Source: a virus (Duplodnaviria > Caudoviricetes). Taken from it: a DNA stretch of 55,082 nucleotides. The position numbers and the translations under genes were made by a program. This document shows positions 40,633 through 53,491 of the stretch, piece after piece. The notes under the pieces are model-generated. The model was not told the DNA's origin. It ran no database searches and was given only the letters and a program-made list of their open reading frames with translations. The first letter of the stretch is position 1, and the number at the start of each line of letters is the position of its first letter. Location of the stretch: the IMG/VR virus record IMGVR_UViG_3300030430_005159, positions 1 to 55,082 of that record; one strand, written 5' to 3'.

Positions 40633-43600
40633 CTACAGCAACTCTACGTCGCCAATAAGCTCTTTGAACAGCAGGAACGATATCAATCCTGCTTCATTGA
40701 GATCTTGTACATTACTCATATCACTTTTCAGCCTAATTTTCTCTGAACTGTTGAGTTGCACAGACTGCAATGGATGGCCGAACAGTTTTGCTTTGTTGAA
40801 GATGTATCGATTCATCGGTCCGTTTTTGCCGATGAGATCCACCACTGCGGTGCCATCAGTGTTTGTTTTTTCGAATCGTTGTCGCTGCTCTTCTTCCTGC
40901 AAAGCCCGGATCGTCTCGTCTGAAATGATTTTCGGACCGCGAGACCCCTTGATCGTAAATGCTCGTGTCTCATCCAAATCGAAGATTGGGTAGAAGCTCG
41001 TGTCATAGAAGAAGTCATCTCCGCGAGCGCCACGCTCCTGTTCCAGCGCCATGAGGCGGCCCTCAGCCTCTTTGAACTTGGCTCCGGTGTCGTCGTACCA
41101 TTCACGCAATGCCATGCCTTGTGAGCCCTCCTGATCATCTCTGGGAAGCTCTCGATATTCGGCCTCGATCATCAGCATCAGTTCCAACAACTCGTCAGCC
41201 AACTGCTTGCGGTCTCGGTACGTGGATCGGAAGTCTTCGATTTCAGACAGGTCCAAAGACATCACCTGCTTCATCGGCTCGTTTGGATCACCGATCTCGG
41301 GTGACTCAGATGGGATTCGTTCTGCCGGCAGTGTCGAGAATCGTCCTGAGGCAAACATTTCTTTCGGGTTGACGAACATGCTGAACACCTCGATGTCGTC
41401 AATCTCGGAGGTCATGTCTGGGTTGGGGTTGCCCTCTTCCTCTTGTCGCTGAGAGCGCACGGCGGCAGCAGCGGGGATTGTTGCGCCTACTCCGATGCCC
41501 TTGAGAATGTTTCCGCTTGGGTCAAACGTTCCTACGTTGCCGGTAGCTGACTTGATTTGCTCCGGCTTGAAGGCCATGTAGTGGTAGGTGCCGGGGGTGA
41601 CGCCTTCCATTCCCAGTTTTTGAAAGCCTGTGGATCCATCTCTGGGGCCAAAAAAATGGTACGCATCGGCAATGATACCGTCGAAACCCATTTGCTCGAA
41701 GACTTGTCGGATAAACTCCGAGGTACCATCCTCGCCCATCTCCGTTTCAAAATAATAGTTACCGTCTTTTACCTCTTTGAAGATATCAAAGGCATCTACC
41801 TCTTGTTCGGTTCTACCTATTCGGGAACTTGCGCTTAGCTCTTCTATAATAAAGGTCTTGAGATTTTGAACGTTGGCTGGTGCTGTGTCGAAGTTGCCCG
41901 CAACATCATCGATGGTCTCAAGCAGGTCAATTACTGAGCCGCTTTCATCCACGATGTTACCGACCTCGTCGAACTCAACATCATAATCAAAAGTCGTCCT
42001 GCCTTTGGTTCCCGATGGATCCAAGTAGACAGGGTTTTCGATTTTGACATACGTCTTCATTACACTGAAGGCTTCGTCTCCAAGAACCCTCTGTCGAGCA
42101 ATTTGTTCGATTAAGTCGGGCTCAAGTTCGTCTTTGAGTTTCTCTACATCTCCGGTCTTAATCGCCTCCAGCAATTCGGTATCCGTCGACTCAGTTCGAT
42201 CCATATATCGCTGGGCTGCATTCAAGATGTCATCGTCATCAGCATCGTCAAGACTGTAGATTCTATCAATCTCTTGATCCACCCTGTTTTGAATGTCAGG
42301 GCCTTCGGCGCGAGCATAATTTACGTTTACATCATCAACATTGTCACTTGTGTAAATGGCCGAACCAAACGCGCTCTCGGGGGAACCCGCACGGAACTCA
42401 TCGAAATCGCCGGACGTTCCATGGAACACCGGCAGGGGCTTACCATCGTCATCCACTACCTTGGAGTCACCAAAAAATCGCTTGAACTCTGGCGTGTCGG
42501 TCTGGGCGGCGGCGGAGGCGGGGGTGTCCGCTAGGTTTGGGCGATATGTCTTACCCACAGGAAGGTAGTTTGGATCATAGTCGTCGCTATCTGGAACGTG
42601 CCACGCTGCATCTGGAGTGACTGATTTACCACCAGCAGCCCTCTCGTCCGGCAATAGCCTCACATTCGACGCAGGATCGACCAAGCTCTGCATCATTTCG
42701 GGCGTGATGTCTCTGCCTCTATCAATCACACCCCTACCAAATACGTGAACAGGTACTGGTACATCGGGCTGAATGGAATCAAGCGCAGTCATACGAGCGC
42801 GACCCTCATGCTGGACGACCCGAAAGCTACCAGCATCGTCTCCCTCTTCGACCAACCCAACCTTAAGGAAGGGGGGGCCGATCGGTTTACCATCCTCAAT
42901 CGCCTCAGTGACTGCTTTGACCGTATCAGCAGCACGCTCAGTCGGGCGAACCGGATTGAGCCCGAGAAAATCTCGTGGCTTCATCCACGCAACGAAGCCC
43001 ATGTATGCAACGTTGGTGTTGTTTGGAACGGCACCCATGCCATCTTTAGAGTCAAATACAACCTTGCCAGCCGTTTGCCGGCCCTCATAAGCTGAGGTTT
43101 CTGTCGGAACCTCCAAGTCGGAAACACGAGCACCCTTGGCGGCTTCGTCGGCCTTACCCAACTGCTGAATCGGCTTCTCCATACGGGAGATAAACTCAGT
43201 GCCCGGTCGCGCCGAAAGCTCATCAAGCGGAGAGTCAAGCAACTTTTCCGTTTGCAGAAGCAACTCAGACAGTGCGTTCTGGTCTTTCTTCGAGATGCCC
43301 AACAGTTCGGCGACCTTCTCAACAAACGTAGTCCAAGCAGACTTGGTGCCGACCTTGACGGTCATCAAGTATTCTTGAAACGGCCTGTTCGTCAGCCCAT
43401 AAGCAACGAACTCCTTTTGATCCTGTGTCGCCCTGACCAGCAGTTGTCTCAAATCAGGATCAATCTCGTCCGAGTTAATTTGTTGCCGAGCCACCTCCAC
43501 GACATTGTTGCGAAGATCAATAATTGCACTGGAGGCTTCCTCCAGTTTCGTGCCCTTGTTGGCCACCAAATTGCCATCGCGCAGCCTTCGAACTGTTGCG

Positions 43601-46600
43601 GCATGCACCAACTCATGGAGCGCTACCTCCGCAGTGGCACCGGATTGATCCACGACCCCCCGAATGAACACATCGTTGAAAGCTTCACCTTCGGATGACC
43701 AGTTCAGACCCTGAGTGACCGACCGGAGACGACTTTCGTGTGCAGTCATCAAAGCCAGCGAGTTGAACACGCTGACATCTAAGTCGCCCTTTTTGGCTGA
43801 CTCCACTACAAATTCAGGAAAATCTTCTGCTTTGCCGGTGAGAACGTGTACATCCGTGTCCTCCAAGTGCGGCATGATTCGCTTCGCGATGGTTTTGTAT
43901 GTGGGATTGTCTGCATTTTTCGCAATGAACTCGGCCAACTCCGTGCCCGACTTGATCTTACGCATGGCGTCAATCGCGCCCTCGACAGTCAAGTCACCCA
44001 AGCCAACGTCTACTTTATCGCCCCTCTCAGGGACGCCCTCTATTGGCTTGAGTCTAGATTTCGCTACTCCCACCAAGTCGGAACCCTCAACCACCTTGTT
44101 GAGTCGGGAGCCCCGGTAAAGGGCCATGCCGCCCAGCCCAATCGCTCCCAGAGCGGCAGCCGCTGAAAGCTCCTCTTCCTCCGCTGCGGCGGCTCCTACG
44201 GCGATTCCGGGCAATGCAACGCTGTACAGCTTCTGGGGCTTGATGACCCGGTCTTTGACTTTGTCGGTGAGTTCGAAGAAGGGGACTTCGATGGCATCTC
44301 CCTTTCGAACGAGTCGATCAAGCGTCGTCTGCATTACCTGAGTGCGAGGAGGCCCCCCCGGAGTTCGGGGTACTCCGACTTTCGAAAATCCGACATCTCT
44401 CAACTCAATATATGTCGTCCCTTGCTTCGCCTTCGTCTCTCTCTTGGCGATGCTGGGGATGAGCTTGTCGTAGTAGTATTGGTTGCCGCCAAACACTGTT
44501 TCAGCTTGTTCTGCGCCGCGCGCTACTTCCCCGCCTTGTTTTTTCAGTTCTGCAAGACGCTTCAAAAACGCTTCGGGGTTGCCCATCACATCGAGCGCCT
44601 CATTTTCCGGCAAAGTCACCAAAGGCGTGATCATGTCCGAACGGCTAAACGCTACGCCGTCATAGCCCCCCTCCGCCGCCTCGCGGAAGATGCGCTTGAT
44701 TGAGAGGGCTGTCCAATCCTTGGTGTCTTTGAATGGGGCGTCGGGGACAGGTGGACCCCCGCTCGTCATAATGTTCCACCGTTCCCTAAACGTGTCGAAA
44801 CCGCCGACACCAAATTGAGCGTAAAACGTGGGCGGCGAAAGGAAACTACGATTGAATTGCTTGTCCGGGTCATTCCGCTTGATGGCTTCAGCGAAGTTCT
44901 TTTCAGCCTCGCGCTGCTCTTTAGCCGAAGCTTTTACTTTTGCCTCTAAGGCAGTCATTTTTTCGAAACTAAGGTTACCTTCGCCGAGTGATTCCGAGTA
45001 ACGTTTTTGTGCGGCTTGCGCCTCACGTTGGGCCTCCATGCGACGATTGAAGGCTGACTCAAGATCGTCAGGAAGTTTTTTAGGCTTACTTTCATAGCCC
45101 GAGTTTCGACCCTTCTGATGCCAGTCAGACTGGATCTCCTCAACAAACAAGATCCTGCGGCCCTTGCTGTCGACACGGTCCTTCGTGCGGATGTGGACCA
45201 TGACGTTGGGAATTTTTCTGTGGTGAGATTCGGTGAAGTCATCTTTGACACCCATCGAAGCTCGTTTCTCTGGGTTCTCTCTAAGGTAAGCTTCGATTCT
45301 ATTTTTTTGGTAATCTTTATTGCGCTCAAAGAATGGAACAAATTCGTCGCTATAGTCATTCTGCTTGTACCAATCTAAAAACTCGTCGGTCACCTTGATA
45401 TTGGTAGGAACCGTCAGCAGAATCTCTTGGTAGTCCTCGCCGCCGGGGACAGTGTAATATTCCCACTGGGGTTTTGAACCCGGTCCTGAAAACTCGTCTT
45501 CCTTGACGCGCTTGATATCGTAAAGTTCCCTGAGACGCTTCGTCTTGGGCAGCGACTCAAACTCCTGAAGCGCAGCGAGTCGAGTCACGGCCTCTGGCAT
45601 GCTGTTCAAGATGTTGGCAGACTTTTTAATGTCTTCGTGCTGCTCTAAAAATTTACCTATGGGTGCGTCAGGATGTGTACGAGCGGTCATTGACTCGTCT
45701 AGTTTGGTGTACTCTTGGTCAACCATCCGCGCATACTCAGGATCAGCCAGCTTCGCGTTGACCGCATCGCGCGCCTTTATGATCAGCGCGGCCTCCTCAA
45801 GCGTCCACGTATACGGACTCCTACCCGAATCGATTAAATCGGTGATTTCATCAAAAAATGGCTTGATATCCGGTGGGATATTGTCGAAATCCTCCAACTT
45901 ATTGATGTCAACAATGTAGTCCGTGTATTCCCCACGAAAGAAAGTGGGAGAGTTGCGAAGGCGGTCCACTGAGTCGAGCACATTGTTTGGTGTCAGCTTG
46001 CTCGCAACAGCGGTTGCCTCATCCCTGATGTCATCGAAAGCAGCTTGGTATTCAACGCGCAAATCTTTCAACTCTTTTGGAGGCTCTTTTGGCGACGTAC
46101 TCAGCCGAACCTCTTCGATCTGGACCTTGTTTTCATCCAGATGTTTGATCAACTCGTCTTTGGTGACGCTTTTTTTGCCCGCCGCTTTCGCGTTTTCAAT
46201 AAACTCAGGAATCTTTGTGTCGACGATCTCTGATTTTTTGGCGCCCTTGCCACTCAAAAACTTCTCAACGTCGTCCACCCCCAGCTTGTTCGGCACTTTT
46301 TGCGTTACAACCTTTTCGATTTCGGACTCAAATACTGGATTTTTCAACTCAGGATCAATTCGAAGTGACTGCTGATACTCTTTGATCTGAGTTTTCACGA
46401 AAAAGGGAACATTCAACGCCTGAAAAACAGCCGAATTTGCAGATTGTTCTGCGGCATCGGCCACCGCATCGATCAGACCTTGCTCGTCTATTTTCTTTTG
46501 ATTCTTTTCAATTCGTCGACGTGTTTGCTCTTTTTGCTCCGATAAGAATTCCTCGATTTGTTTTTTTGCAGAGGGCTCAATTGTTTTCAAATCGATGTCT

Positions 46601-47331
46601 TGAACCAGAAATTTTTCGATTTCACTGTCCGGTATTTGGATTCGAACGTCGGAAGAAATCTTGCCAGCACCCGTAGCAGCGTCGTCGCCGCGAATCGCAC
46701 GCTTCAGCGCCGCTCCACTCAGCAAACTGCCCACCAATGGTGCCGCTGCCAACTGAATCAGGCCTGCCGTACCAGATATGCCAACGTCTACCAAGTGAGA
46801 CGTGCGCCGCTCAGGGTCCGAAACCGCCAATCGACCCGATTGCGTAGCCGAAAGCAGGTCAGAAAACCCGCTTGGGTCCTTGAATGACGCGATATCGGCC
46901 AAGTTTCGGGTCGCTTCGGCGTCTCCCTCGAAGGCTTTTTCGGCCATTTCGTCCAACGCACGGTTCGCCCGACGTATGGAACCCACCGGATCCATGCCAA
47001 TTGCACGCAACTCGCTCTCGCGAAGGTCCGTCACAAACTCCGGTTCGCCCTTTACGTCCTCGCCACCAAAGAAATAATCCGCCGCGTCGTCCAACTTTTG
47101 ACCCGCAGACTGCCGAAGCTCCGTAATCTGGGTCTCAAGCTCACCGCCCGGCGCCACATAATCCCGAATCTGCTGGTATTTCTGCCGCAAATCCTCAATC
47201 GAAGACTCCTCGGACTCGTCACGAACATCGGCAGCTACCTGAGCGCGGAGCGCAGGTTCGTCCAGAGGCTGGCCCTTCTCCTTTCGGAAGCCCCTCATGT
47301 TCCCCATCAGCACGTCATCGAATGACGCCAT
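40633..47331 (-). CDS. Large polyvalent protein: EEIQSD domain, zincin metallopeptidase, ParB-like domain, ADP-ribosyltransferase (ART-PolyVal-like)
   Basis: FVEEIQSDWHQKGR (~45110-45150); ALHELVHA HExxH (~43603-43617); VVQHEGRAR (~42793-42820); FKRFFGDSKVVDDDGKPLPVFHGT...AIYTS...GFDGII...YMAFKPEQIKSATGN (~41520-42486). Confidence 0.8.
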   Translation of the reverse strand: MASFDDVLMGNMRGFRKEKGQPLDEPALRAQVAADVRDESEESSIEDLRQKYQQIRDYVAPGGELETQITELRQSAGQKLDDAADYFFGGEDVKGEPEFVTDLRESELRAIGMDPVGSIRRANRALDEMAEKAFEGDAEATRNLADIASFKDPSGFSDLLSATQSGRLAVSDPERRTSHLVDVGISGTAGLIQLAAAPLVGSLLSGAALKRAIRGDDAATGAGKISSDVRIQIPDSEIEKFLVQDIDLKTIEPSAKKQIEEFLSEQKEQTRRRIEKNQKKIDEQGLIDAVADAAEQSANSAVFQALNVPFFVKTQIKEYQQSLRIDPELKNPVFESEIEKVVTQKVPNKLGVDDVEKFLSGKGAKKSEIVDTKIPEFIENAKAAGKKSVTKDELIKHLDENKVQIEEVRLSTSPKEPPKELKDLRVEYQAAFDDIRDEATAVASKLTPNNVLDSVDRLRNSPTFFRGEYTDYIVDINKLEDFDNIPPDIKPFFDEITDLIDSGRSPYTWTLEEAALIIKARDAVNAKLADPEYARMVDQEYTKLDESMTARTHPDAPIGKFLEQHEDIKKSANILNSMPEAVTRLAALQEFESLPKTKRLRELYDIKRVKEDEFSGPGSKPQWEYYTVPGGEDYQEILLTVPTNIKVTDEFLDWYKQNDYSDEFVPFFERNKDYQKNRIEAYLRENPEKRASMGVKDDFTESHHRKIPNVMVHIRTKDRVDSKGRRILFVEEIQSDWHQKGRNSGYESKPKKLPDDLESAFNRRMEAQREAQAAQKRYSESLGEGNLSFEKMTALEAKVKASAKEQREAEKNFAEAIKRNDPDKQFNRSFLSPPTFYAQFGVGGFDTFRERWNIMTSGGPPVPDAPFKDTKDWTALSIKRIFREAAEGGYDGVAFSRSDMITPLVTLPENEALDVMGNPEAFLKRLAELKKQGGEVARGAEQAETVFGGNQYYYDKLIPSIAKRETKAKQGTTYIELRDVGFSKVGVPRTPGGPPRTQVMQTTLDRLVRKGDAIEVPFFELTDKVKDRVIKPQKLYSVALPGIAVGAAAAEEEELSAAAALGAIGLGGMALYRGSRLNKVVEGSDLVGVAKSRLKPIEGVPERGDKVDVGLGDLTVEGAIDAMRKIKSGTELAEFIAKNADNPTYKTIAKRIMPHLEDTDVHVLTGKAEDFPEFVVESAKKGDLDVSVFNSLALMTAHESRLRSVTQGLNWSSEGEAFNDVFIRGVVDQSGATAEVALHELVHAATVRRLRDGNLVANKGTKLEEASSAIIDLRNNVVEVARQQINSDEIDPDLRQLLVRATQDQKEFVAYGLTNRPFQEYLMTVKVGTKSAWTTFVEKVAELLGISKKDQNALSELLLQTEKLLDSPLDELSARPGTEFISRMEKPIQQLGKADEAAKGARVSDLEVPTETSAYEGRQTAGKVVFDSKDGMGAVPNNTNVAYMGFVAWMKPRDFLGLNPVRPTERAADTVKAVTEAIEDGKPIGPPFLKVGLVEEGDDAGSFRVVQHEGRARMTALDSIQPDVPVPVHVFGRGVIDRGRDITPEMMQSLVDPASNVRLLPDERAAGGKSVTPDAAWHVPDSDDYDPNYLPVGKTYRPNLADTPASAAAQTDTPEFKRFFGDSKVVDDDGKPLPVFHGTSGDFDEFRAGSPESAFGSAIYTSDNVDDVNVNYARAEGPDIQNRVDQEIDRIYSLDDADDDDILNAAQRYMDRTESTDTELLEAIKTGDVEKLKDELEPDLIEQIARQRVLGDEAFSVMKTYVKIENPVYLDPSGTKGRTTFDYDVEFDEVGNIVDESGSVIDLLETIDDVAGNFDTAPANVQNLKTFIIEELSASSRIGRTEQEVDAFDIFKEVKDGNYYFETEMGEDGTSEFIRQVFEQMGFDGIIADAYHFFGPRDGSTGFQKLGMEGVTPGTYHYMAFKPEQIKSATGNVGTFDPSGNILKGIGVGATIPAAAAVRSQRQEEEGNPNPDMTSEIDDIEVFSMFVNPKEMFASGRFSTLPAERIPSESPEIGDPNEPMKQVMSLDLSEIEDFRSTYRDRKQLADELLELMLMIEAEYRELPRDDQEGSQGMALREWYDDTGAKFKEAEGRLMALEQERGARGDDFFYDTSFYPIFDLDETRAFTIKGSRGPKIISDETIRALQEEEQRQRFEKTNTDGTAVVDLIGKNGPMNRYIFNKAKLFGHPLQSVQLNSSEKIRLKSDMSNVQDLNEAGLISFLLFKELIGDVELL

Positions 47332-47335
47332 GATA

Positions 47336-47728
47336 TCAGGTACCGATCAGTGTGACAGAGACCGTGCCCGTTGGCGCCGTCGTCCCAGCCGTGCCCGCTG
47401 TGGTCACCACTGCCAAGTGCAGGTAGTTGCTCGTAGCAAACTGCACGCCGCCCGGAATCAGCATCTCGACCGAACGAGAAGCCGGAGCCTTCAACACAAA
47501 CGAAGGAACCGTCGTGCCCACTGAAAGCTGACCGGCATCCGCGTTGGTGCTCTCGTACAGCTTCAAATACACCGCTTCCGTCGAGTTGGCGCTGTTGTCC
47601 AGCTTCACCACGAACATCTGTGGCGCCGTCTTGTTGAACACGTTCGCAACCGGAGTCGCGTTGGCTGCCGTCTCCCTGAAAATCAAGGTTCCAAGCGGAC
47701 TACTTACAGTCTTGAGAATATCGGCCAT
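47336..47728 (-). CDS. Small beta-rich virion protein (paralog family, copy 2)
   Basis: 130 aa; VKLDNSAN..AVYLKLYE...PSFVLKAP...IPGGVQF. Confidence 0.7.
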   Translation of the reverse strand: MADILKTVSSPLGTLIFRETAANATPVANVFNKTAPQMFVVKLDNSANSTEAVYLKLYESTNADAGQLSVGTTVPSFVLKAPASRSVEMLIPGGVQFATSNYLHLAVVTTAGTAGTTAPTGTVSVTLIGT

Positions 47729-50059: not shown

Positions 50060-50327
50060 AAATACCTCGGCTGGCCAGTTTATGATTGCGAAAGGTTCGC
50101 GTCAACCCTGACCTTTTCAAAAATCAAAAACGTGAATCGCTCATCATTAAGGGGGGCTCCGCCCCCCAGCGCGCAAAAAACGTTGATTATGGGGGGGTCG
50201 CGTGTGTGTGCGCGTGGAATCGGGCGCGCGCGGGCGTGGCTCCGCCAAAACCCAGGGGGGAGGCCGTTTTTCGCGAAAAATACCGCGCATGGGGGGGCGG
50301 GTATGGCGGGGCGCGTCACACGGCACA

Positions 50328-50645
50328 CCCCCCACCGCCAAACAGCCGGGCCACCACACGGGCCGCGCTACGGGCGACGGTCGCCACGCGGGCGCATGCG
50401 GCACGCGATACGCGAACCACGCGCGCGGGGATTGCGCGAACGGCCGCGACCATGGGGGCGACGGCGCGAGCGGTGACCGCGACCACGGGGGCGACGGGCG
50501 CAAGGGGGGCCACGGCAGGCGGGGCCGGGTTGACTGGAACCACCACCACACGGGGGGCGCCCACCACGCGAAGCGCAGCGGCCTTGACCCACGCGACGAA
50601 GCGACCCGTGCGCGTACACCGCGCCCGTTGACGGGGGGCGTCCGC
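50328..50645. repeat. Degenerate GC-rich direct repeats (CCAC/CATGGGGGCGACGG-like)
   Basis: CGCGACCATGGGGGCGACGG, CGCGACCACGGGGGCGACGG, CCACACGGGGGGCG, GACGGGGGGCG. Confidence 0.55.
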
Positions 50646-50907
50646 TGTGAGGTTCGAAAATGCGAGGGTGAGTTCCATACCTCCAGCGTAACCATACCGG
50701 GCACACCTGACAAGGGGGGGCAAGCAAAAAAGTAAAAATACTTTGGCACGGGTATTGCATGCGTACACGTACGCGGGCGCACGGTTTCCTTTTGTTGCGA
50801 AAACGGCGAGACGCTGAAAAAGGGGTCCACAAAAAAAAATGAAAAAAAATTCCTCAATGATTCTAATAACTTACGGCGATATTGACTATTTTTTTTGGAT
50901 ACCACAC

Positions 50908-50990
50908 TTGCACTACCTGCCATACCGTGCAATCTTGTTTGTGTGGCGGGGGAACACCCCCCAAAACAAAACAAGACAAGCTCTTTCAAA
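50908..50990 (+). promoter_or_regulatory. Candidate early promoter, hairpin and boxA-like antitermination element
   Basis: A/T tracts at 50830-50897; TTGCAC at 50908 (weak -10); stem-loop 50933-50976; GCTCTTTCAAA at 50980-50990 resembles boxA (GCTCTTTAACA). Confidence 0.5.
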
Positions 50991-51002
50991 TCGCGAATAG
51001 AT

Positions 51003-51795
51003 TGTACGTGCAAGATGGAATCAGCCCACGAACCCGAAGGGTGACGGCATTCCGAGACGCAAGCCGGGCGGACGAACCCGGCCGCCGATGACCAGTAGGG
51101 GGAGGACTCTGTCGCCCGCCGAAAGTCACAAGCGAAGCCAAGCAACACCAAGGGAACGGAAACCGGCCACGGCCGGGTCCCAAGTGAGTGACAGCGGGAG
51201 CGAAGGTAGGCGCGTTTAGTGGCGAGGACCCCAGCAAACGGGCGAGCCGAATCGGTGAACATCCCACGTGCATGCATAGGCGATTGAAGACGCCTGACAC
51301 CCCATGACCCCCCGCGGCTTAGCCTGACGTGAGGGGGACCCGACACCCGGCCGCGCTCAAGCGGCCACCCAAACAAGGCCGGCGGATAGCTCTCCGCAGT
51401 CTACAAAACGAGCCGCCCGCCCCGTGTGCGACACCTACGGGGGCCCCGTGTGCCGTGGCCACGGGAAGCAATGCGCCCCGGCGAGCGCGTAATCGCCGCC
51501 CCTTTTTTGAGCAGTCCCCCGGCGCATGTTCGCCGAGCCTGCCCACGGTCGCGGTCCCGATACCAGCCGCTTACCCTCGTGACCAGCGCCGCGCATATCG
51601 GGGGGAAGCCGGAAGGCACAGCGGCGCATTTATCCGCGACATAGTCAAACCTAAGCCCCGCGCGGGGGGCTCGCTCATCCACCGCCGGGCGTCCGGGCAG
51701 GGTGAGAGTCGTAAACAGGGCGCCCACTACATAGCCCGCGCCGTGGGCTCCCCTCGCGTATCGAGTAGGGTAGAGCCCCGGCGCGCGGCGGACCT
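51003..51795 (+). ncRNA. Candidate large structured non-coding RNA (family unrecognised)
   Basis: No credible ORF; nested long-range helices (51003-17 with 51260-72; 51112-29 with 51188-203) and many local hairpins; hairpin plus T6 at ~51480-51508. Confidence 0.55.
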
Positions 51796-52069
51796 CTACC
51801 AAAAAAGCGCGTATTTCTTCAAGTGTGCCGGTTTCCCCTGAACCTTTCGCAGTTTGCAGGGTTTTTCGCGGTTTCGCTCCGCGCAAGTCTCGCGCAGTTT
51901 ACCCGGCGGCGGTGCGTTTCGCCCGCCCTATCGTTCGGCCCATTCTCGGCGTTGAACGCCCGGTATCGCGTGGCCGTTGGTGCTTTGAAACTCGCCGAAA
52001 ACGACGCGCGGGGGACCCACTCGCACCCTACCAAAACGCTCGAAACCTTGGGCGCCCCGGTGTTCCGGC

Positions 52070-52420
52070 CCAACCTGTCCCGGACCCTGTCCCGTACCCC
52101 TTCGCACTTGACACACCCGACGCACCTGTTAAACTGGGGTCATGCAATCACAAGGTATGCCAAGTCGTCAAACTGTCCCGTACCCTATCCCGGCGAACTG
52201 TTCAGCTTCCCCGGTGGTTTTCTCGGTTTGTCCCAACCGTCCCAACCTATTCCGGCACATTTTGAGTCGTCTGTTTCTCTCTCTACTACTCCCCCTCTAC
52301 TCGTCTACTTTTTTACTCAAGTAGGTTAGGACGGTTAGGACAAATGACCATAACCGGCCGCCAACCGAAACCTTTCGCTGTCCCATACGGTGGGACGTTT
52401 GTCCCATGACCCGGGACAGC
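52070..52420. other. Origin-like array of TGTCCC/GGGAC repeats with a 23-bp inverted repeat
   Basis: TTTGTCCCAACCGTCCCAACCTA (52227-52249) vs TAGGTTAGGACGGTTAGGACAAA (52322-52344), 2 mismatches; pyrimidine-rich spacer; further (T)GTCCC copies on both sides. Confidence 0.5.
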
Positions 52421-52437
52421 CAACCCTTGGAGGCCCC

Positions 52438-52653
52438 ATGTCTTACGAAACTATTGAGCGCGGACCCCACGGCGATAAGCTGTGGTGCATCACCGAGTGC
52501 AAAGCCTGCGAGGGTCGCGGGACCGTCTGGTACCCCGGATGCGATGCTGCCCCTGCCGACTGCGGACAGTGCCACGGCATGGGCGAGATCGCCCGATTCA
52601 AGCGCCTTGACCTCAACGGCAAGCCCCTTGGGGCGTGGCGTACCTCCGACTAA
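52438..52653 (+). CDS. Small DnaJ-type zinc-finger protein
   Basis: Start MSYETI after TGGAGG; CKACEGRG and CGQCHGMG (two CxxCxGxG). Confidence 0.75.
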   Translation: MSYETIERGPHGDKLWCITECKACEGRGTVWYPGCDAAPADCGQCHGMGEIARFKRLDLNGKPLGAWRTSD

Positions 52654-52767
52654 ACCCGATTCAACAGTGCGGACAGCCCTTTTGGCAGTTTCGTAATCCG
52701 CCTTCAGCGAAAAAGCACGGTTAAAAACTGCCACCCCTTGCAAGCAAACACCCGACACCGGAGGCCC

Positions 52768-52803
52768 TCGTATGGCGTTCCCTTCTCGTATGGCGTTCCC
52801 TTC
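52768..52803 (+). repeat. Perfect 18-bp tandem duplication spanning the start codon
   Basis: TCGTATGGCGTTCCCTTC x2, giving MAFPSR-MAFPSY. Confidence 0.95.
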
Positions 52804-53491
52804 CTATCTCGCGACCGCTACAACCACGAATCGAAAAACAGGCAACGTGCCCACCATCGCCATCGGCGCCACCCGCGAGGAATCGCTGGACTCGTGCCGC
52901 GCCGTGGGCTGTCCGTTGCTGCACAAAAAGCACGGCGGCGAGGGCGATGGCGATAATCCCCTGTGCTATTCCCAACATGGCACCCCGTCGTTCTCTCACT
53001 CCGCCATGGTCAAGGCCCACGCGAAGGGCAAGCGGTACAGCCTCCGGGGTGCGCTGGCGAATGCATCGCGGGCCGCTCGCATGGTTCGGCTCGGGTCCAT
53101 CGGTGACCCGGCGGCCCTCTCCCCGATTGACGGGGCGTACATTCGCAAGGCCGTCAGGGACGAAGGGTTCGCCTTGGTTGGCTACACCCACGGGTGGGCC
53201 ATGGACATGGCGAAGCGCTGGAAAGGTCACATCATGGCCTCGTGTGAGACCTTGGAGCAAGCCGATACCGCCATTGCGGACGGGTGGCGGGCCGTGGTTG
53301 TACTGCCCGAAGACTTCGAGGGCACGACCTTCGACACCCCAGACGGTCACCGGGGCATCGTTTGCCCGGCTCAGCTTGAGCCCGATATCGTGACCTGCAA
53401 TACCTGCCGGGTGTGCGATGCCTCGAAGGCGGGGCCGGTTGTCGGCTTCATCGACCACAGCCCCGGCAAGGCTACCAAGCGCAAGCGCTAA
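52772..53491 (+). CDS. Cys-rich Gp88/DUF7227-like phage protein (possibly Fe-S binding)
   Basis: NRKTG, C....CPL...CY, RLGSIGD, GYTH, SCET, GWR, CPAQ...TCNTCRVC; GGAGG RBS; family name from recollection. Confidence 0.7.
   Translation: MAFPSRMAFPSYLATATTTNRKTGNVPTIAIGATREESLDSCRAVGCPLLHKKHGGEGDGDNPLCYSQHGTPSFSHSAMVKAHAKGKRYSLRGALANASRAARMVRLGSIGDPAALSPIDGAYIRKAVRDEGFALVGYTHGWAMDMAKRWKGHIMASCETLEQADTAIADGWRAVVVLPEDFEGTTFDTPDGHRGIVCPAQLEPDIVTCNTCRVCDASKAGPVVGFIDHSPGKATKRKR

What the first reader, a model, noticed from the sequence alone, without database searches (positions are those of the whole stretch)
50900..51795. rrn-style hairpin+boxA leader followed by a 500-800-nt densely structured, unclassified RNA
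Seen: an AT-rich upstream tract, TTGCAC, a stem-loop (50933-50976) and GCTCTTTCAAA, in the boxB-then-boxA order of rRNA leaders. An ORF-poor region follows with nested helices: TGTACGTG..GATG (51003-17) closes on CATC.CACGTGCA (51260-72) with one G-U pair, and TCGC-CCGC..GTCAC (51112-29) pairs with GTGAC.GCGG..GCGA (51188-203). Local hairpins include GCCGGG/CCCGGC, AGGCG/CGCCT, GGCCGC/GCGGCC, GCGGA/TCCGC and GGGCTC/GAGCCC. A hairpin+T6 terminator-like site lies at ~51480-51508, with a second structured block to ~51795. Known: boxA recruits NusB/NusE for antitermination, and phages encode large ncRNAs such as GOLLD and ROOL. Inference: a new large phage ncRNA, or an RNA antitermination device at the start of the early transcript.
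Basis: partly seen in the sequence, partly recalled or inferred. Interest (0 to 1): 0.82.

Follow-up and report, generated by a model that had tools for sequence, protein, structure and literature searches.

The report
Large structured RNA of marine phages
A small lineage of uncultured marine phages carries a gene for a folded RNA of roughly 570 bases that matches no known RNA family and begins with a motif like the one that starts ribosomal RNA operons; what the RNA does is still unknown.

Summary
Window ~50940-51508 (+ strand) is a non-coding, conserved, structured RNA gene. I found it in 7 phage genotypes, always at the same place (rusA - 321-aa gene - 120-aa gene - RNA). Compensatory base changes support the fold. 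Window versus its closest relative gives 15 double changes and 0 broken pairs among 135 predicted pairs, against 4.5 +/- 1.75 in permuted controls, and only on the + strand. The four divergent genotypes give 33 among 117 pairs. The boxA-like motif (NNTCTTTNAMATN) is present in 7 of 7 genotypes, and the terminal hairpin keeps pairing through a C-G to U-A swap. Rfam 15 gives no hit. Transcription, Nus-factor binding and function are untested because no RNA-seq run holds the region. Most likely this is a stand-alone early phage ncRNA made through an rrn-like boxA leader.

The parts
50907..50936 (+). Promoter-like stretch: -35-like TTGCAC (50908-13), 17-nt spacer, weak -10-like AATCTT (50931-36). 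Implies a start near 50941-50945. Inferred, not mapped.
   Evidence: TTGCCA/TTGTCA/TTGCAC followed by YACCTGNCA is present in 6 of 7 genotypes, not in L253. The related motif recurs at 52107-52122, at the promoter-like site before the early genes. The consensus scan did not call this site in the window because its hexamers are too weak.
50948..50961 (+). 5' hairpin P0 (GGGGG AACA CCCCC), the 'boxB-like' position.
   Evidence: One search tested 3 genotypes: the hairpin is present at the same place in the window, L003 (3 bp) and L021 (GGGGA/TCCCC). By my reading of the alignments, L250 and L253 also have one.
50980..50992 (+). boxA-like motif GCTCTTTCAAATC.
   Evidence: NNTCTTTNAMATN is found in 7 of 7 genotypes. 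It is the only exact copy in the 55-kb window. It matches rrn boxA UGCUCUUUA (PMC2724277) at 7 of 9 positions.
51003..51017 (+). P1 closing helix, 5' strand (8 nt, CAA bulge, 4 nt).
   Evidence: Pairs with 51260-51272. The 8-bp part occurs as TGTACGTG, AATGGGTG, TAGACAGG, TAGACGGG and TAAGGTCG, each with its own complement.
51018..51259 (+). Domain 1 interior. Contains P2 (51017-21/51049-53), P3 hairpin with ..ACGAA loop (51063-82), hairpin CCGGC-CACG-GCCGG (51163-76) and the conserved 22-mer with an AGCAA-loop hairpin (51227-48). The central junction fold is unresolved.
   Evidence: P2 and P3 covary between the groups. The AGCAA hairpin stem changes on both sides at 2 pairs in L253. Group B carries insertions and a GAAA-loop hairpin in place of P2.
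51260..51272 (+). P1 closing helix, 3' strand (4 nt, C bulge, 8 nt).
51273..51478 (+). Domain 2: a row of hairpins (51278-95, 51349-66, 51382-97, 51420-43, 51445-65). The last ~120 nt form the module best conserved across all 7 genotypes.
   Evidence: Compensatory changes occur in each of the first three hairpins. The hairpin around the GCCGUGGC tip covaries at all 5 outer pairs across the 7 genotypes.
51479..51508 (+). Terminator-like hairpin CGGCGA/TCGCCG, then CCCC, then T6.
   Evidence: The stem is kept in 7 of 7 with a C-G to U-A swap, 4 to 3. A run of 3-5 C always separates the stem from the T's. The T-run is T4-T6 in 6 genotypes and TTTCT in L250. Assemblies of related strains break or diverge at 51511.
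51687..51797 (+). Second, separate long hairpin block. It is downstream of the terminator and is not shown to belong to the RNA.
   Evidence: 79% identical to L003 over 118 aligned columns. It has 31 predicted pairs, of which only 1 is compensatory. nhmmer matches overlapping the block occur in L251 (window 51723-52424) and L252 (51729-51801). In one search, W versus L021 is only 51% identical over 51700-51799.

Best explanation
Window ~50940-51508 (+ strand) is a gene for a structured non-coding RNA. It is about 570 nt in the window's subgroup and about 650 nt in the divergent subgroup. It is specific to one lineage of uncultured marine tailed phages.

Shown:
- It is conserved.
- It is not protein-coding.
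- Its fold is kept by compensatory changes on the + strand only.
- It sits at a fixed place, at the head of the rightward (early-looking) side of a divergent promoter region.
- It has a fixed order of parts: short hairpin, boxA-like motif, an 8+4-bp closing helix (P1) around a multi-helix domain, a row of 3' hairpins, and a final hairpin followed by C's and a short T-run.

Inferred mechanism:
1. Host RNA polymerase starts at a sigma-70-like promoter (TTGCCA class) of the same type as the promoter before the early genes.
2. The nascent boxA-like sequence recruits NusB/NusE(S10) and the other Nus factors, as in rRNA operons.
3. This protects a long untranslated transcript from Rho. By holding the 5' leader at the polymerase, it may also help the distant 3' strand of P1 find its partner.
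4. Most transcripts end at the terminal hairpin, and the RNA then acts in trans.

Its trans function is unknown. By analogy with other large phage RNAs it is more likely a scaffold or a binding/sequestering RNA than a regulator of a single neighbouring gene.
For: Conservation and distribution:
- There are 7 genotypes: window; L003; L253; L021 (=L022/L023); L250; L251; L252.
- Where the locus reaches those genes, each is next to homologues of the same 321-aa, 120-aa and RusA genes.
- In 4 marine runs from 4 studies, the contig pieces over the core differ at 4 of 474 and 6 of 534 positions. Flanking pieces carry 30+8 differences in 971 nt and 42+17 in 654 nt.

Non-coding:
- Substitution phases are 31/30/28 and no indel is a multiple of 3.
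- The neighbouring DUF7227 gene, as a control, gives 14 of 17, 10 of 11 and 6 of 7 substitutions in one phase.

Structure:
- Window versus L003: 135 pairs, 15 changed on both sides, 9 on one side, 0 broken.
- Re-running alifold on 150 column-permuted alignments gives 4.5 +/- 1.75 (maximum 10), and consensus energy -147 +/- 7 against -183 observed.
- The minus strand gives 5 against 5.8.
- Slid controls give 0-1.
- A structure predicted from the window alone still collects 6 compensatory pairs against 1.6 expected (8 of 2000 permutations reach it).
- Group A, 3 sequences: 20 of 141 pairs.
- Group B, 4 sequences: 33 of 117 pairs, slid controls 5-9.
- 3' module, all 7 sequences: 13 of 34 pairs, slid controls 0-6.
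- P1 has at least four mutually compensated versions.

Leader:
- The boxA-like motif is present in 7 of 7 genotypes while its flanks vary.
- The rrn order boxB-boxA, and boxA as the necessary and sufficient element, come from PMC10250234 (passages).
- The boxA sequences come from PMC2724277 (passages).

Own unit:
- Promoter-like motif in 6 of 7, shared with the site at 52107.
- Conserved terminal hairpin.
- About 900 nt of non-coding DNA with a separate promoter-like site lies between the RNA and the first conserved rightward gene.
Against: - No expression data. Of 22 runs listed, none is on record as RNA. The start, the end and the very existence of the transcript are inferred.
- Folding energy is not better than dinucleotide shuffles.
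- Only 7 genotypes from one phage lineage are known, and two alignments have only 2-4 rows. All structures were derived from the same sequences they are scored on. No R-scape-type significance is possible.
- The interior of domain 1 is not resolved and differs between the subgroups. The model R1 built from group A aligns L021 at only 23 bits.
- The promoter hexamers are weak in the window (TTGCAC, AATCTT), and the consensus scan did not report them.
- The terminal hairpin is separated from the T-run by 3-5 C, and the T-run is short or broken in group B, so termination may be partial.
- The boxA-like motif deviates from UGCUCUUUA at 2 of 9 positions in the window and at more in group B.
- Near-matches to the motif are at chance level elsewhere in the window: 9 found, 6.2 expected.
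- The host, and hence its own boxA, is unknown.
Confidence: 0.6

Rival explanations
1. It is a cis-acting leader of the early operon. It works as a processive antitermination or attenuation device. The boxA-modified polymerase reads through the terminal hairpin into the downstream early genes, and the folded body has no life of its own.
For: - It is on the same strand as, and upstream of, the rightward genes.
- The boxA-like motif is conserved in 7 of 7.
- The terminal hairpin has a C3-5 spacer and a T-run of only 3-4 in three group B genotypes, so readthrough is plausible.
- N-type complexes resist intrinsic terminators (PMC10250234).
- nhmmer also aligns the downstream non-coding DNA 51723-52424 to L251.
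Against: - A 570-650-nt body with conserved multi-helix structure is far more than boxA-type antitermination needs.
- About 900 nt of DNA at only 41-77% identity follows, with its own promoter-like site (TTGACA-16-TAAACT, 10 of 12 matches) and an operator-like repeat cluster.
- The first downstream gene (87-aa zinc-ribbon) is absent in L021 and in one laid run.
- DNA right after 51511 is swapped between strains and genotypes while the RNA body stays.
Confidence: 0.2
2. It is part of the replication origin: a structured pre-primer or activator transcript, in the manner of ColE1 RNA II (recalled, not from a call). It would work together with the AT-rich tract and the repeat cluster in this 1.8-kb non-coding region.
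For: - The non-coding span between the 120-aa gene (50316-50678) and the next ORF (the ATG near 52438) is unusually long. It lies between divergent gene blocks.
- A/T runs lie at 50820-50900.
- 7 of the window's 15 TGTCCCR sites fall in 52076-52418.
Against: - The AT-rich tract is upstream of the RNA, not at its 3' end.
- The RNA ends in a conserved hairpin plus T-run rather than in a hybrid-forming stretch.
- GC skew shows no switch here.
- More distant relatives have ordinary protein genes at this position and only a short divergent spacer.
Confidence: 0.08
3. It is not a functional RNA. The conservation reflects recent recombination or hitch-hiking, or a structure used at the DNA level (single-stranded DNA hairpins or protein binding sites).
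For: - The identity pattern is mosaic, with sharp breakpoints between genotypes.
- Folding energy equals that of shuffles.
- There is no RNA evidence.
- G-T pairs would also be tolerated in single-stranded DNA of the same strand.
Against: - The excess of compensatory changes is strand-specific.
- It is repeated in independent comparisons.
- Helices are kept even where sequence identity has decayed, as in P1, P3 and the 3' hairpin.
- Promoter-like and terminator-like ends frame the unit.
Confidence: 0.05

Closest known systems
rRNA operon leader (boxB hairpin - boxA - boxC, leader-trailer helix; rrn antitermination complex)
   Same: - Order of a hairpin and then a boxA-type sequence near the 5' end.
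- The sequence core GCUCUUU matches, at 7 of 9 positions of UGCUCUUUA.
- A long-range helix starting ~11 nt after boxA closes over a large structured RNA. This resembles boxC and the leader-trailer helix 18-19 nt after boxA (PMC10250234).
   Different: - It is not an rRNA and has no Rfam rRNA hit.
- P1 has 12 pairs, not 25-40.
- The boxC-like TGTTTGTGTGG lies upstream of the hairpin and is present in only 4 of 7 genotypes.
- Nus binding is untested.
Lambda nut sites with protein N (boxA - spacer - boxB)
   Same: A phage-borne boxA-type element at the start of an early transcript. The lambda boxA is CGCUCUUA.
   Different: - The order of hairpin and boxA is reversed.
- The motif is of the rrn type (CUUU).
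- No N-like protein was identified. The neighbouring 120-aa protein has an arginine-rich N-terminus, but its family occurs widely (83 hits).
- The element is followed by a 500-nt folded body.
ROOL and GOLLD (large ornate phage and prophage RNAs)
   Same: Phage-encoded, 600-800 nt, elaborate conserved secondary structure, no known protein partner, function unknown (PMC12286853, passages).
   Different: - No covariance-model match to any Rfam 15 family, a library that should include these two (that it does is recalled).
- It is not next to a tRNA island. The only tRNA is 3.4 kb away on the other strand.
- Its distribution is narrow.
- A boxA-like leader is not described for those RNAs in the passages I read.
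- Oligomerisation is untested.
HK022 put RNA (recalled from memory, no call)
   Same: A phage RNA element in the early leader that acts on the transcribing polymerase to suppress termination.
   Different: As recalled, put is about 70 nt, consists of two stem-loops, and needs no Nus factors or boxA. The present RNA is eight times larger and carries a boxA-like motif.

Membership tests
Any Rfam 15 family (library of 4227 models; that it includes ROOL, GOLLD, RNase P, tmRNA, introns and riboswitches is recalled) | Covariance-model score at or above the family's gathering threshold | tested here: not met
   - 0 matches at gathering in the whole window.
- With relaxed filters on 601 nt, the best + strand hits are blv_FSE at 16.5 bits (threshold 34) and PreQ1 at 14.8 bits (threshold 39). 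The best hit overall is a minus-strand miRNA model at 24.8 bits (threshold 55).
- Relatives L003 and L021 give only sub-threshold hits.
boxA (NusB-NusE site of rrn leaders and lambda nut) | Sequence close to UGCUCUUUA (rrn) or CGCUCUUA (lambda) | tested here: met
   The window, L003 and L253 have AGCUCUUUC, matching at 7 of 9 positions. The core UCUUU, then any base, then A, is present in 7 of 7 genotypes. Reference sequences are from PMC2724277.
boxA (NusB-NusE site of rrn leaders and lambda nut) | Lies in the nascent 5' leader, next to a hairpin and ahead of the RNA to be protected | tested here: inconclusive
   The order hairpin - motif - P1 is seen in every alignment made. The transcription start is only inferred from a weak promoter-like site.
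boxA (NusB-NusE site of rrn leaders and lambda nut) | Binds NusB-NusE and confers resistance to termination | not testable with these tools
   This needs binding and transcription assays, and the host is unknown.
Intrinsic (Rho-independent) terminator | G+C-rich hairpin followed at once by a U-tract | tested here: inconclusive
   The scan calls it in the window. The stem is kept in 7 of 7. However, 3-5 C separate stem and T-run in all genotypes, and the run is T4 in L251 and L252 and TTTCT in L250.
rrn leader-trailer processing helix | Long (25-40 bp) helix between leader and trailer enclosing the mature RNA | tested here: not met
   P1 has 8+4 pairs with two bulges. The length criterion is from PMC10250234. 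The topology is alike, but the size is not.
Protein-coding gene | Three-base periodicity of substitutions and frame-preserving indels | tested here: not met
   Phases are 31/30/28, and 7 of 7 indels are not multiples of 3. No PHROG hit was found for the long spurious ORFs.
tRNA / tmRNA | Cloverleaf or tRNA-like domain with tag frame | tested here: not met
   ARAGORN finds only tRNA-Thr at 47454-47532 in the window. It finds nothing in L002, L003, L021 or L022.
Large ornate phage ncRNAs as a kind (ROOL/GOLLD-like) | Over 500 nt, phage-encoded, multi-helix structure supported by covariation | tested here: met
Large ornate phage ncRNAs as a kind (ROOL/GOLLD-like) | Self-assembly into homo-oligomers; location near tRNA islands | not testable with these tools
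   Assembly needs biochemistry or cryo-EM. There is no tRNA island here.

The most novel reading that the evidence does not exclude
A new class of large phage RNA is built the way a cell builds ribosomal RNA. In this reading the phage copies the rrn leader logic: a hairpin, boxA, then a leader-to-trailer closing helix. Host Nus factors then escort and fold a ~570-650-nt untranslated RNA. The finished RNA acts in trans on the host, for example as a scaffold or cage like ROOL/GOLLD, or as a sink for NusB/S10 that starves host rRNA synthesis. This would be the first non-ribosomal large RNA known to depend on an rrn-type antitermination leader.
Probability: 0.2. Interest if true: 0.85.

Novelty: new variant of a known kind. 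Interest (0 to 1): 0.64.

Why it matters
Large structured RNAs outside the ribosome are rare, and each class found so far has opened new questions. Examples are ROOL, GOLLD and OLE, whose assemblies were solved only recently (PMC12286853).

This candidate has features that make it tractable:
- It has clear boundaries.
- It has a closing helix with strong comparative support.
- It comes in two structurally diverged subgroups that can be compared.
- It has a testable handle, the conserved boxA-like leader. That leader links it to a well-understood host machine, the Nus-factor antitermination complex that also chaperones rRNA folding.

If the link holds, it would show that phages borrow the rRNA production line for their own RNA. 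It would also give an experimental way in (boxA point mutants, with or without Nus factors and Rho), even before the RNA's final function is known.

If the link does not hold, the RNA is still a new family for Rfam-type libraries and a marker for this phage lineage.

Tried and rejected
Homology searches that found nothing beyond the 7 genotypes:
- blastn of 50700-52400 against 50,697 cultured-phage records gave no match.
- Four IMG/VR motif scans returned only the known relative plus chance hits. One search gave 1 of 1 loci, the known relative. One search gave 17 loci, 16 of them chance by blastn. One search gave 4 loci, 3 of them chance.
- One search gave 11 loci: the known relative L004 plus 10 others. 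Those 10 are 4 unrelated AT-rich sequences, one repeated six times and one twice.
None was homologous by nhmmer. Prophage copies in bacteria are therefore not excluded.
- The synteny route through the DUF7227 neighbour gave 69 metagenome loci and 25 IMG/VR loci. The RNA was present only in L003/L213 and L021-L023.
- Relatives in which the 321-aa protein is only 23-26% identical (L035, L039, L217 and others) carry protein ORFs at this place instead.
- The scan that finally worked used the 3' end as bait. 4 of its 6 new loci are true homologues. L248 and L249 are chance hits in G+C-rich coding DNA.

Expression: no RNA holder was listed among 22 runs.

Ideas dropped:
- tmRNA or tRNA-with-intron, because ARAGORN was negative.
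- PreQ1 riboswitch in the 5' hairpin plus A-rich tail (14.8 bits against a threshold of 39).
- boxC, because TGTTTGTGTGG is present in only 4 of 7 genotypes.
- Long-range pairing of 50934-47 with 51364-77, which by my reading is not kept in L021.
- An RNA-protein module with the 120-aa protein, because its family is widespread (83 hits).
- The + strand ORF 50086-50631. There is no periodicity, and indels break the frame upstream of 50316.

Tools that were not available:
- Structure-aware MAFFT (Q-INS-i) is not installed. Alignments of the divergent subgroup are therefore sequence-based, and its interior fold is provisional.
- Supplements of PMC10690425 could not be opened. That paper lists 8,495 candidate viral RNA motifs of 29-151 nt from IMG/VR 3.0. 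Single hairpins of this RNA may be listed there.

In-print check: searches returned no paper that, by title or abstract, describes a boxA-led large phage RNA.
Full report
**Setting**

The window is a 55,082-bp linear IMG/VR virus record estimated 75% complete.
- Minus-strand genes run from 4745 to 50059. They include a large terminase subunit, a major head protein, an internal virion protein, a 2517-aa protein and a 2232-aa polyvalent protein. That last protein has a virion-RNA-polymerase-like stretch and an ADP-ribosyltransferase domain. A RusA resolvase and a tRNA-Thr also lie here.
- The terminase is at most 26.7% identical to any of 50,697 cultured-phage records, so this is an uncultured lineage.
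- Related DNA is held by marine and estuary metagenome runs from 9 studies.
- G+C is about 50% over the structural genes and 60-65% from 50,000 onward.

**What lies around the finding**
- A real small gene lies on the minus strand at 50316-50678 (120 aa). In the stretch 50535-50678, 25 of 38 substitutions against L003 and 19 of 31 against L021 fall on its third codon position. Upstream of its stop codon there is no periodicity and indels break frames.
- Rightward genes start with an 87-aa zinc-ribbon ORF (52390-52653; likely ATG near 52438). It is absent in L021 and skipped in one laid run. A conserved DUF7227 gene follows at 52772-53491.
- The truly non-coding span is therefore ~50679-52437.
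- Substitutions show no periodicity at 51500-52400, while the DUF7227 control shows 14 of 17, 10 of 11 and 6 of 7 in one phase.

**The observation**

Thermodynamics does not single the region out. Folding z-scores are -0.74 for 50900-51795 on the + strand, +0.34 on the minus strand, -0.42 for 51000-51275 and -0.28 for 51273-51510.

**Homologues**

Homologues came in three steps.
- The two flanking proteins led to one IMG/VR contig of 73,969 bp (L002/L003). In it, window 50936-51516 is 83% identical by gapped blastn, with long runs of identity. The 100-200 nt on either side are about 40-55% identical.
- A profile of the DUF7227 protein fetched 69 metagenome loci and 25 IMG/VR loci. Only L021/L022/L023, which are identical to one another over the shared stretch, carry the element, in a much diverged form with insertions.
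- A pattern from the best-conserved 3' end found L250, L251, L252 and L253 in IMG/VR, plus two chance hits.

All four new loci have the same neighbours. RusA is 67-71% identical, the 321-aa protein 51-60%, and the N-terminus of the 120-aa protein 66-78%. That makes 7 genotypes in two subgroups:
- Group A: window, L003, L253.
- Group B: L021, L250, L251, L252.

Relatives in which the 321-aa protein is only 23-26% identical have ordinary rightward ORFs in this position and lack the element.

**It is not coding**

Between the window and L003 the 89 core substitutions fall 31/30/28 over the three phases. The seven indels are 1, 1, 2, 2, 1, 2 and 1 nt long. The long ORFs that cross the region (for example 409 aa on the minus strand) have no PHROG hit.

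**It is a structured RNA of the + strand**
- Window versus L003: RNAalifold predicts 135 pairs, of which 15 changed on both sides, 9 on one side and none is broken.
- Because alifold rewards covariation, I re-ran it on 150 alignments in which L003's letters were permuted among columns with the same window base. This gave 4.5 +/- 1.75 compensatory pairs (maximum 10) and a consensus energy of -147 +/- 7 kcal/mol, against -183 observed.
- On the reverse complement the observed count is 5 against 5.8 expected.
- Sliding the 3' partners by 1-3 columns leaves 0-1 compensatory pairs.
- A structure predicted from the window alone, blind to L003, still collects 6 against 1.6 expected (8 of 2000 permutations reach it).
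- Adding L253 gives 20 of 141 pairs.
- The four group B sequences give 33 of 117 pairs, with slid controls of 5-9.
- The 3' part aligned over all 7 sequences gives 13 of 34 pairs, with slid controls of 0-6.

Individual helices:
- The closing helix P1 reads as follows:
  - TGTACGTG/CACGTGCA in the window.
  - AATGGGTG/CACCCATG in L003 (7 of 8 pairs).
  - TAGACAGG/CCTGTCTA in L021 and L251.
  - TAGACGGG/CCCGTCTA in L250.
  - TAAGGTCG/TGACCTTA in L252.
- Its 4-bp extension reads GATG/CATC, ACTC/GAGT and GCCA/TGGC in the window, L003 and L021.
- P3 keeps an 8-nt loop ending ACGAA while its stem changes from CCGGG/CCCGG to GGGAG/CTCCC.
- The hairpin capped by GCCGUGGC covaries at all five outer pairs.

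Limits of this evidence:
- The alignments are shallow.
- The structures were derived from the scored sequences.
- The centre of domain 1 is unresolved.
- Group B has a GAAA-loop hairpin where group A has P2, plus two inserted hairpins. Model R1, built from group A, aligns L021 at only 23 bits.

**Selection in the wild**

Contigs from four runs of four studies were laid on 50060-52770.
- Pieces over the core differ at 6 of 534 and 4 of 474 positions.
- Flanking pieces carry 30 differences plus 8 gaps in 971 nt, and 42 plus 17 in 654 nt.
- Assemblies break or diverge right after 51511, and 51610-51728 is deleted or replaced.
- These are DNA contigs of related strains. They show conservation, not expression.

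**The ends**

Upstream:
- TTGCCA (TTGCAC in the window, TTGTCA in L251) followed by YACCTGNCA is present in 6 of 7 genotypes. About 17 nt further on lies a weak -10-like hexamer.
- A related motif sits at 52107-52122, where the scan finds TTGACA-16-TAAACT before the early genes.

Downstream:
- The stem CGGYGA/TCRCCG is kept in 7 of 7 with a C-G to U-A swap, 4 to 3.
- It is always followed by 3-5 C.
- The T-run is T6 in the window and L021, T5 in L003 and L253, T4 in L251 and L252, and TTTCT in L250.

The unit therefore looks like a gene of its own, with a terminator that may leak.

**The leader**

The motif NNTCTTTNAMATN occurs in 7 of 7 genotypes:

| Genotype | Motif |
|---|---|
| window, L003, L253 | GCTCTTTCAAATC |
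| L251 | GCTCTTTTAAATC |
| L252 | GTTCTTTGACATC |
| L250 | AATCTTTGAAATC |
| L021 | ATTCTTTGAAATA |

- The surrounding leader varies, and group B has a ~47-nt hairpin inserted before the motif.
- In rrn operons the order is boxB, boxA, boxC. boxA is necessary and sufficient to assemble the antitermination complex. The leader then pairs with a trailer across the whole 16S rRNA (PMC10250234, passages).
- The present RNA has the same order of parts on a small scale: hairpin, boxA-like motif, then 10-11 nt later in the window and L251 (further in L252) the 5' strand of a helix that closes 250-330 nt downstream.
- This is a resemblance. Binding of Nus factors is untested, the host is unknown, and P1 (12 bp) is far shorter than a leader-trailer helix.
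- Near-matches to the motif elsewhere in the window are at chance level (9 found, 6.2 expected).

**Comparison with the known**
- Rfam 15 gives nothing at gathering thresholds in the window. It gives only sub-threshold noise when the core or the relatives are searched alone with lax filters.
- ARAGORN finds no tRNA or tmRNA in the region or in four relatives' loci.
- The nearest kind is the group of large phage RNAs ROOL and GOLLD: phage-borne, 600-800 nt, ornate, function unknown (PMC12286853, passages). There is no sequence or model similarity to them, no tRNA island here, and a much narrower distribution.
- A 2023 survey of IMG/VR 3.0 reported 8,495 new motifs of 29-151 nt (PMC10690425, passages). 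Its supplements were closed, so I cannot say whether single hairpins of this RNA are listed there.
- My paper searches returned no paper that, by title or abstract, describes a boxA-led large phage RNA.

**Verdict**
- The RNA is real: about 0.9.
- It is a new family: about 0.85.
- It is a stand-alone trans-acting RNA rather than a leader: about 0.6.
- The boxA-like motif works through Nus factors: about 0.35.
- Its function is unknown.
- The second block at 51687-51797 is a separate, conserved, G+C-rich hairpin of uncertain meaning.

Noticed in passing
window 50316-50678 (-): An unannotated-looking 120-aa gene with SD GGAGGT. It has a conserved arginine-rich N-terminal ~45 residues, then Ala/Val/Pro-rich 11-residue repeats (a 33-nt DNA repeat at 50444-50497). 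L003 lacks one repeat unit. Its N-terminal domain has 83 database relatives, and one source names one of them a minor tail protein.
   Followed up: yes
window 52076-52418: 7 of the window's 15 TGTCCCR sites are clustered in 343 nt around the promoter-like site 52108-52135. Some sit in direct repeats (CTGTCCCGNACCC) and some as inverted pairs, and they are partly conserved in L003. This looks like an operator or iteron array in front of the early genes.
   Followed up: partly
L003 ~1205-1260 (just after the RNA's terminator); also a loose end in run X4 behind window 51511: A canonical T-arm-like sequence (GGGGTTCGAATCCCC) replaces the window's sequence here. A second GGTTCGAAC lies about 100 nt on. 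ARAGORN finds no tRNA, so this may be a tRNA fragment or an attachment-site remnant.
   Followed up: partly
window 52767-52802: A perfect 18-nt tandem duplication (CTCGTATGGCGTTCCCTT twice) spans the start of the DUF7227 gene. It gives MAFPSRMAFPS, and relatives align only from residue 7.
   Followed up: no
window 52390-52653 (+): An 87-aa CxxC zinc-ribbon ORF has weak hits to the DnaJ zinc domain and to a Q-like antiterminator PHROG (E about 1e-3). It is absent in L021 and skipped in run X8 (52421 to 52653), so it is an accessory gene.
   Followed up: partly
window 40633-47331 (-): A 2232-aa polyvalent protein combines a stretch like N4-type virion RNA polymerase (PHROG 2206, E 2e-19) with an ART-PolyVal ADP-ribosyltransferase domain. 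It hints at an injected multi-function protein.
   Followed up: no
window 50697-50712, 50907-50922, 52107-52122, 53394-53409 (+): The motif CTTGCCAYACCTGNCA (up to 3 mismatches) recurs four times on the + strand within 2.7 kb. The whole window has 7 matches against 2.6 expected. It may be an early-promoter class of this phage.
   Followed up: partly
L102 and L134 (Dehalococcoidia MAG contigs): Arrays of a ~114-nt tandem repeat containing the 19-nt bait motif turned up by chance in the genome scan. They are unrelated to the finding.
   Followed up: no
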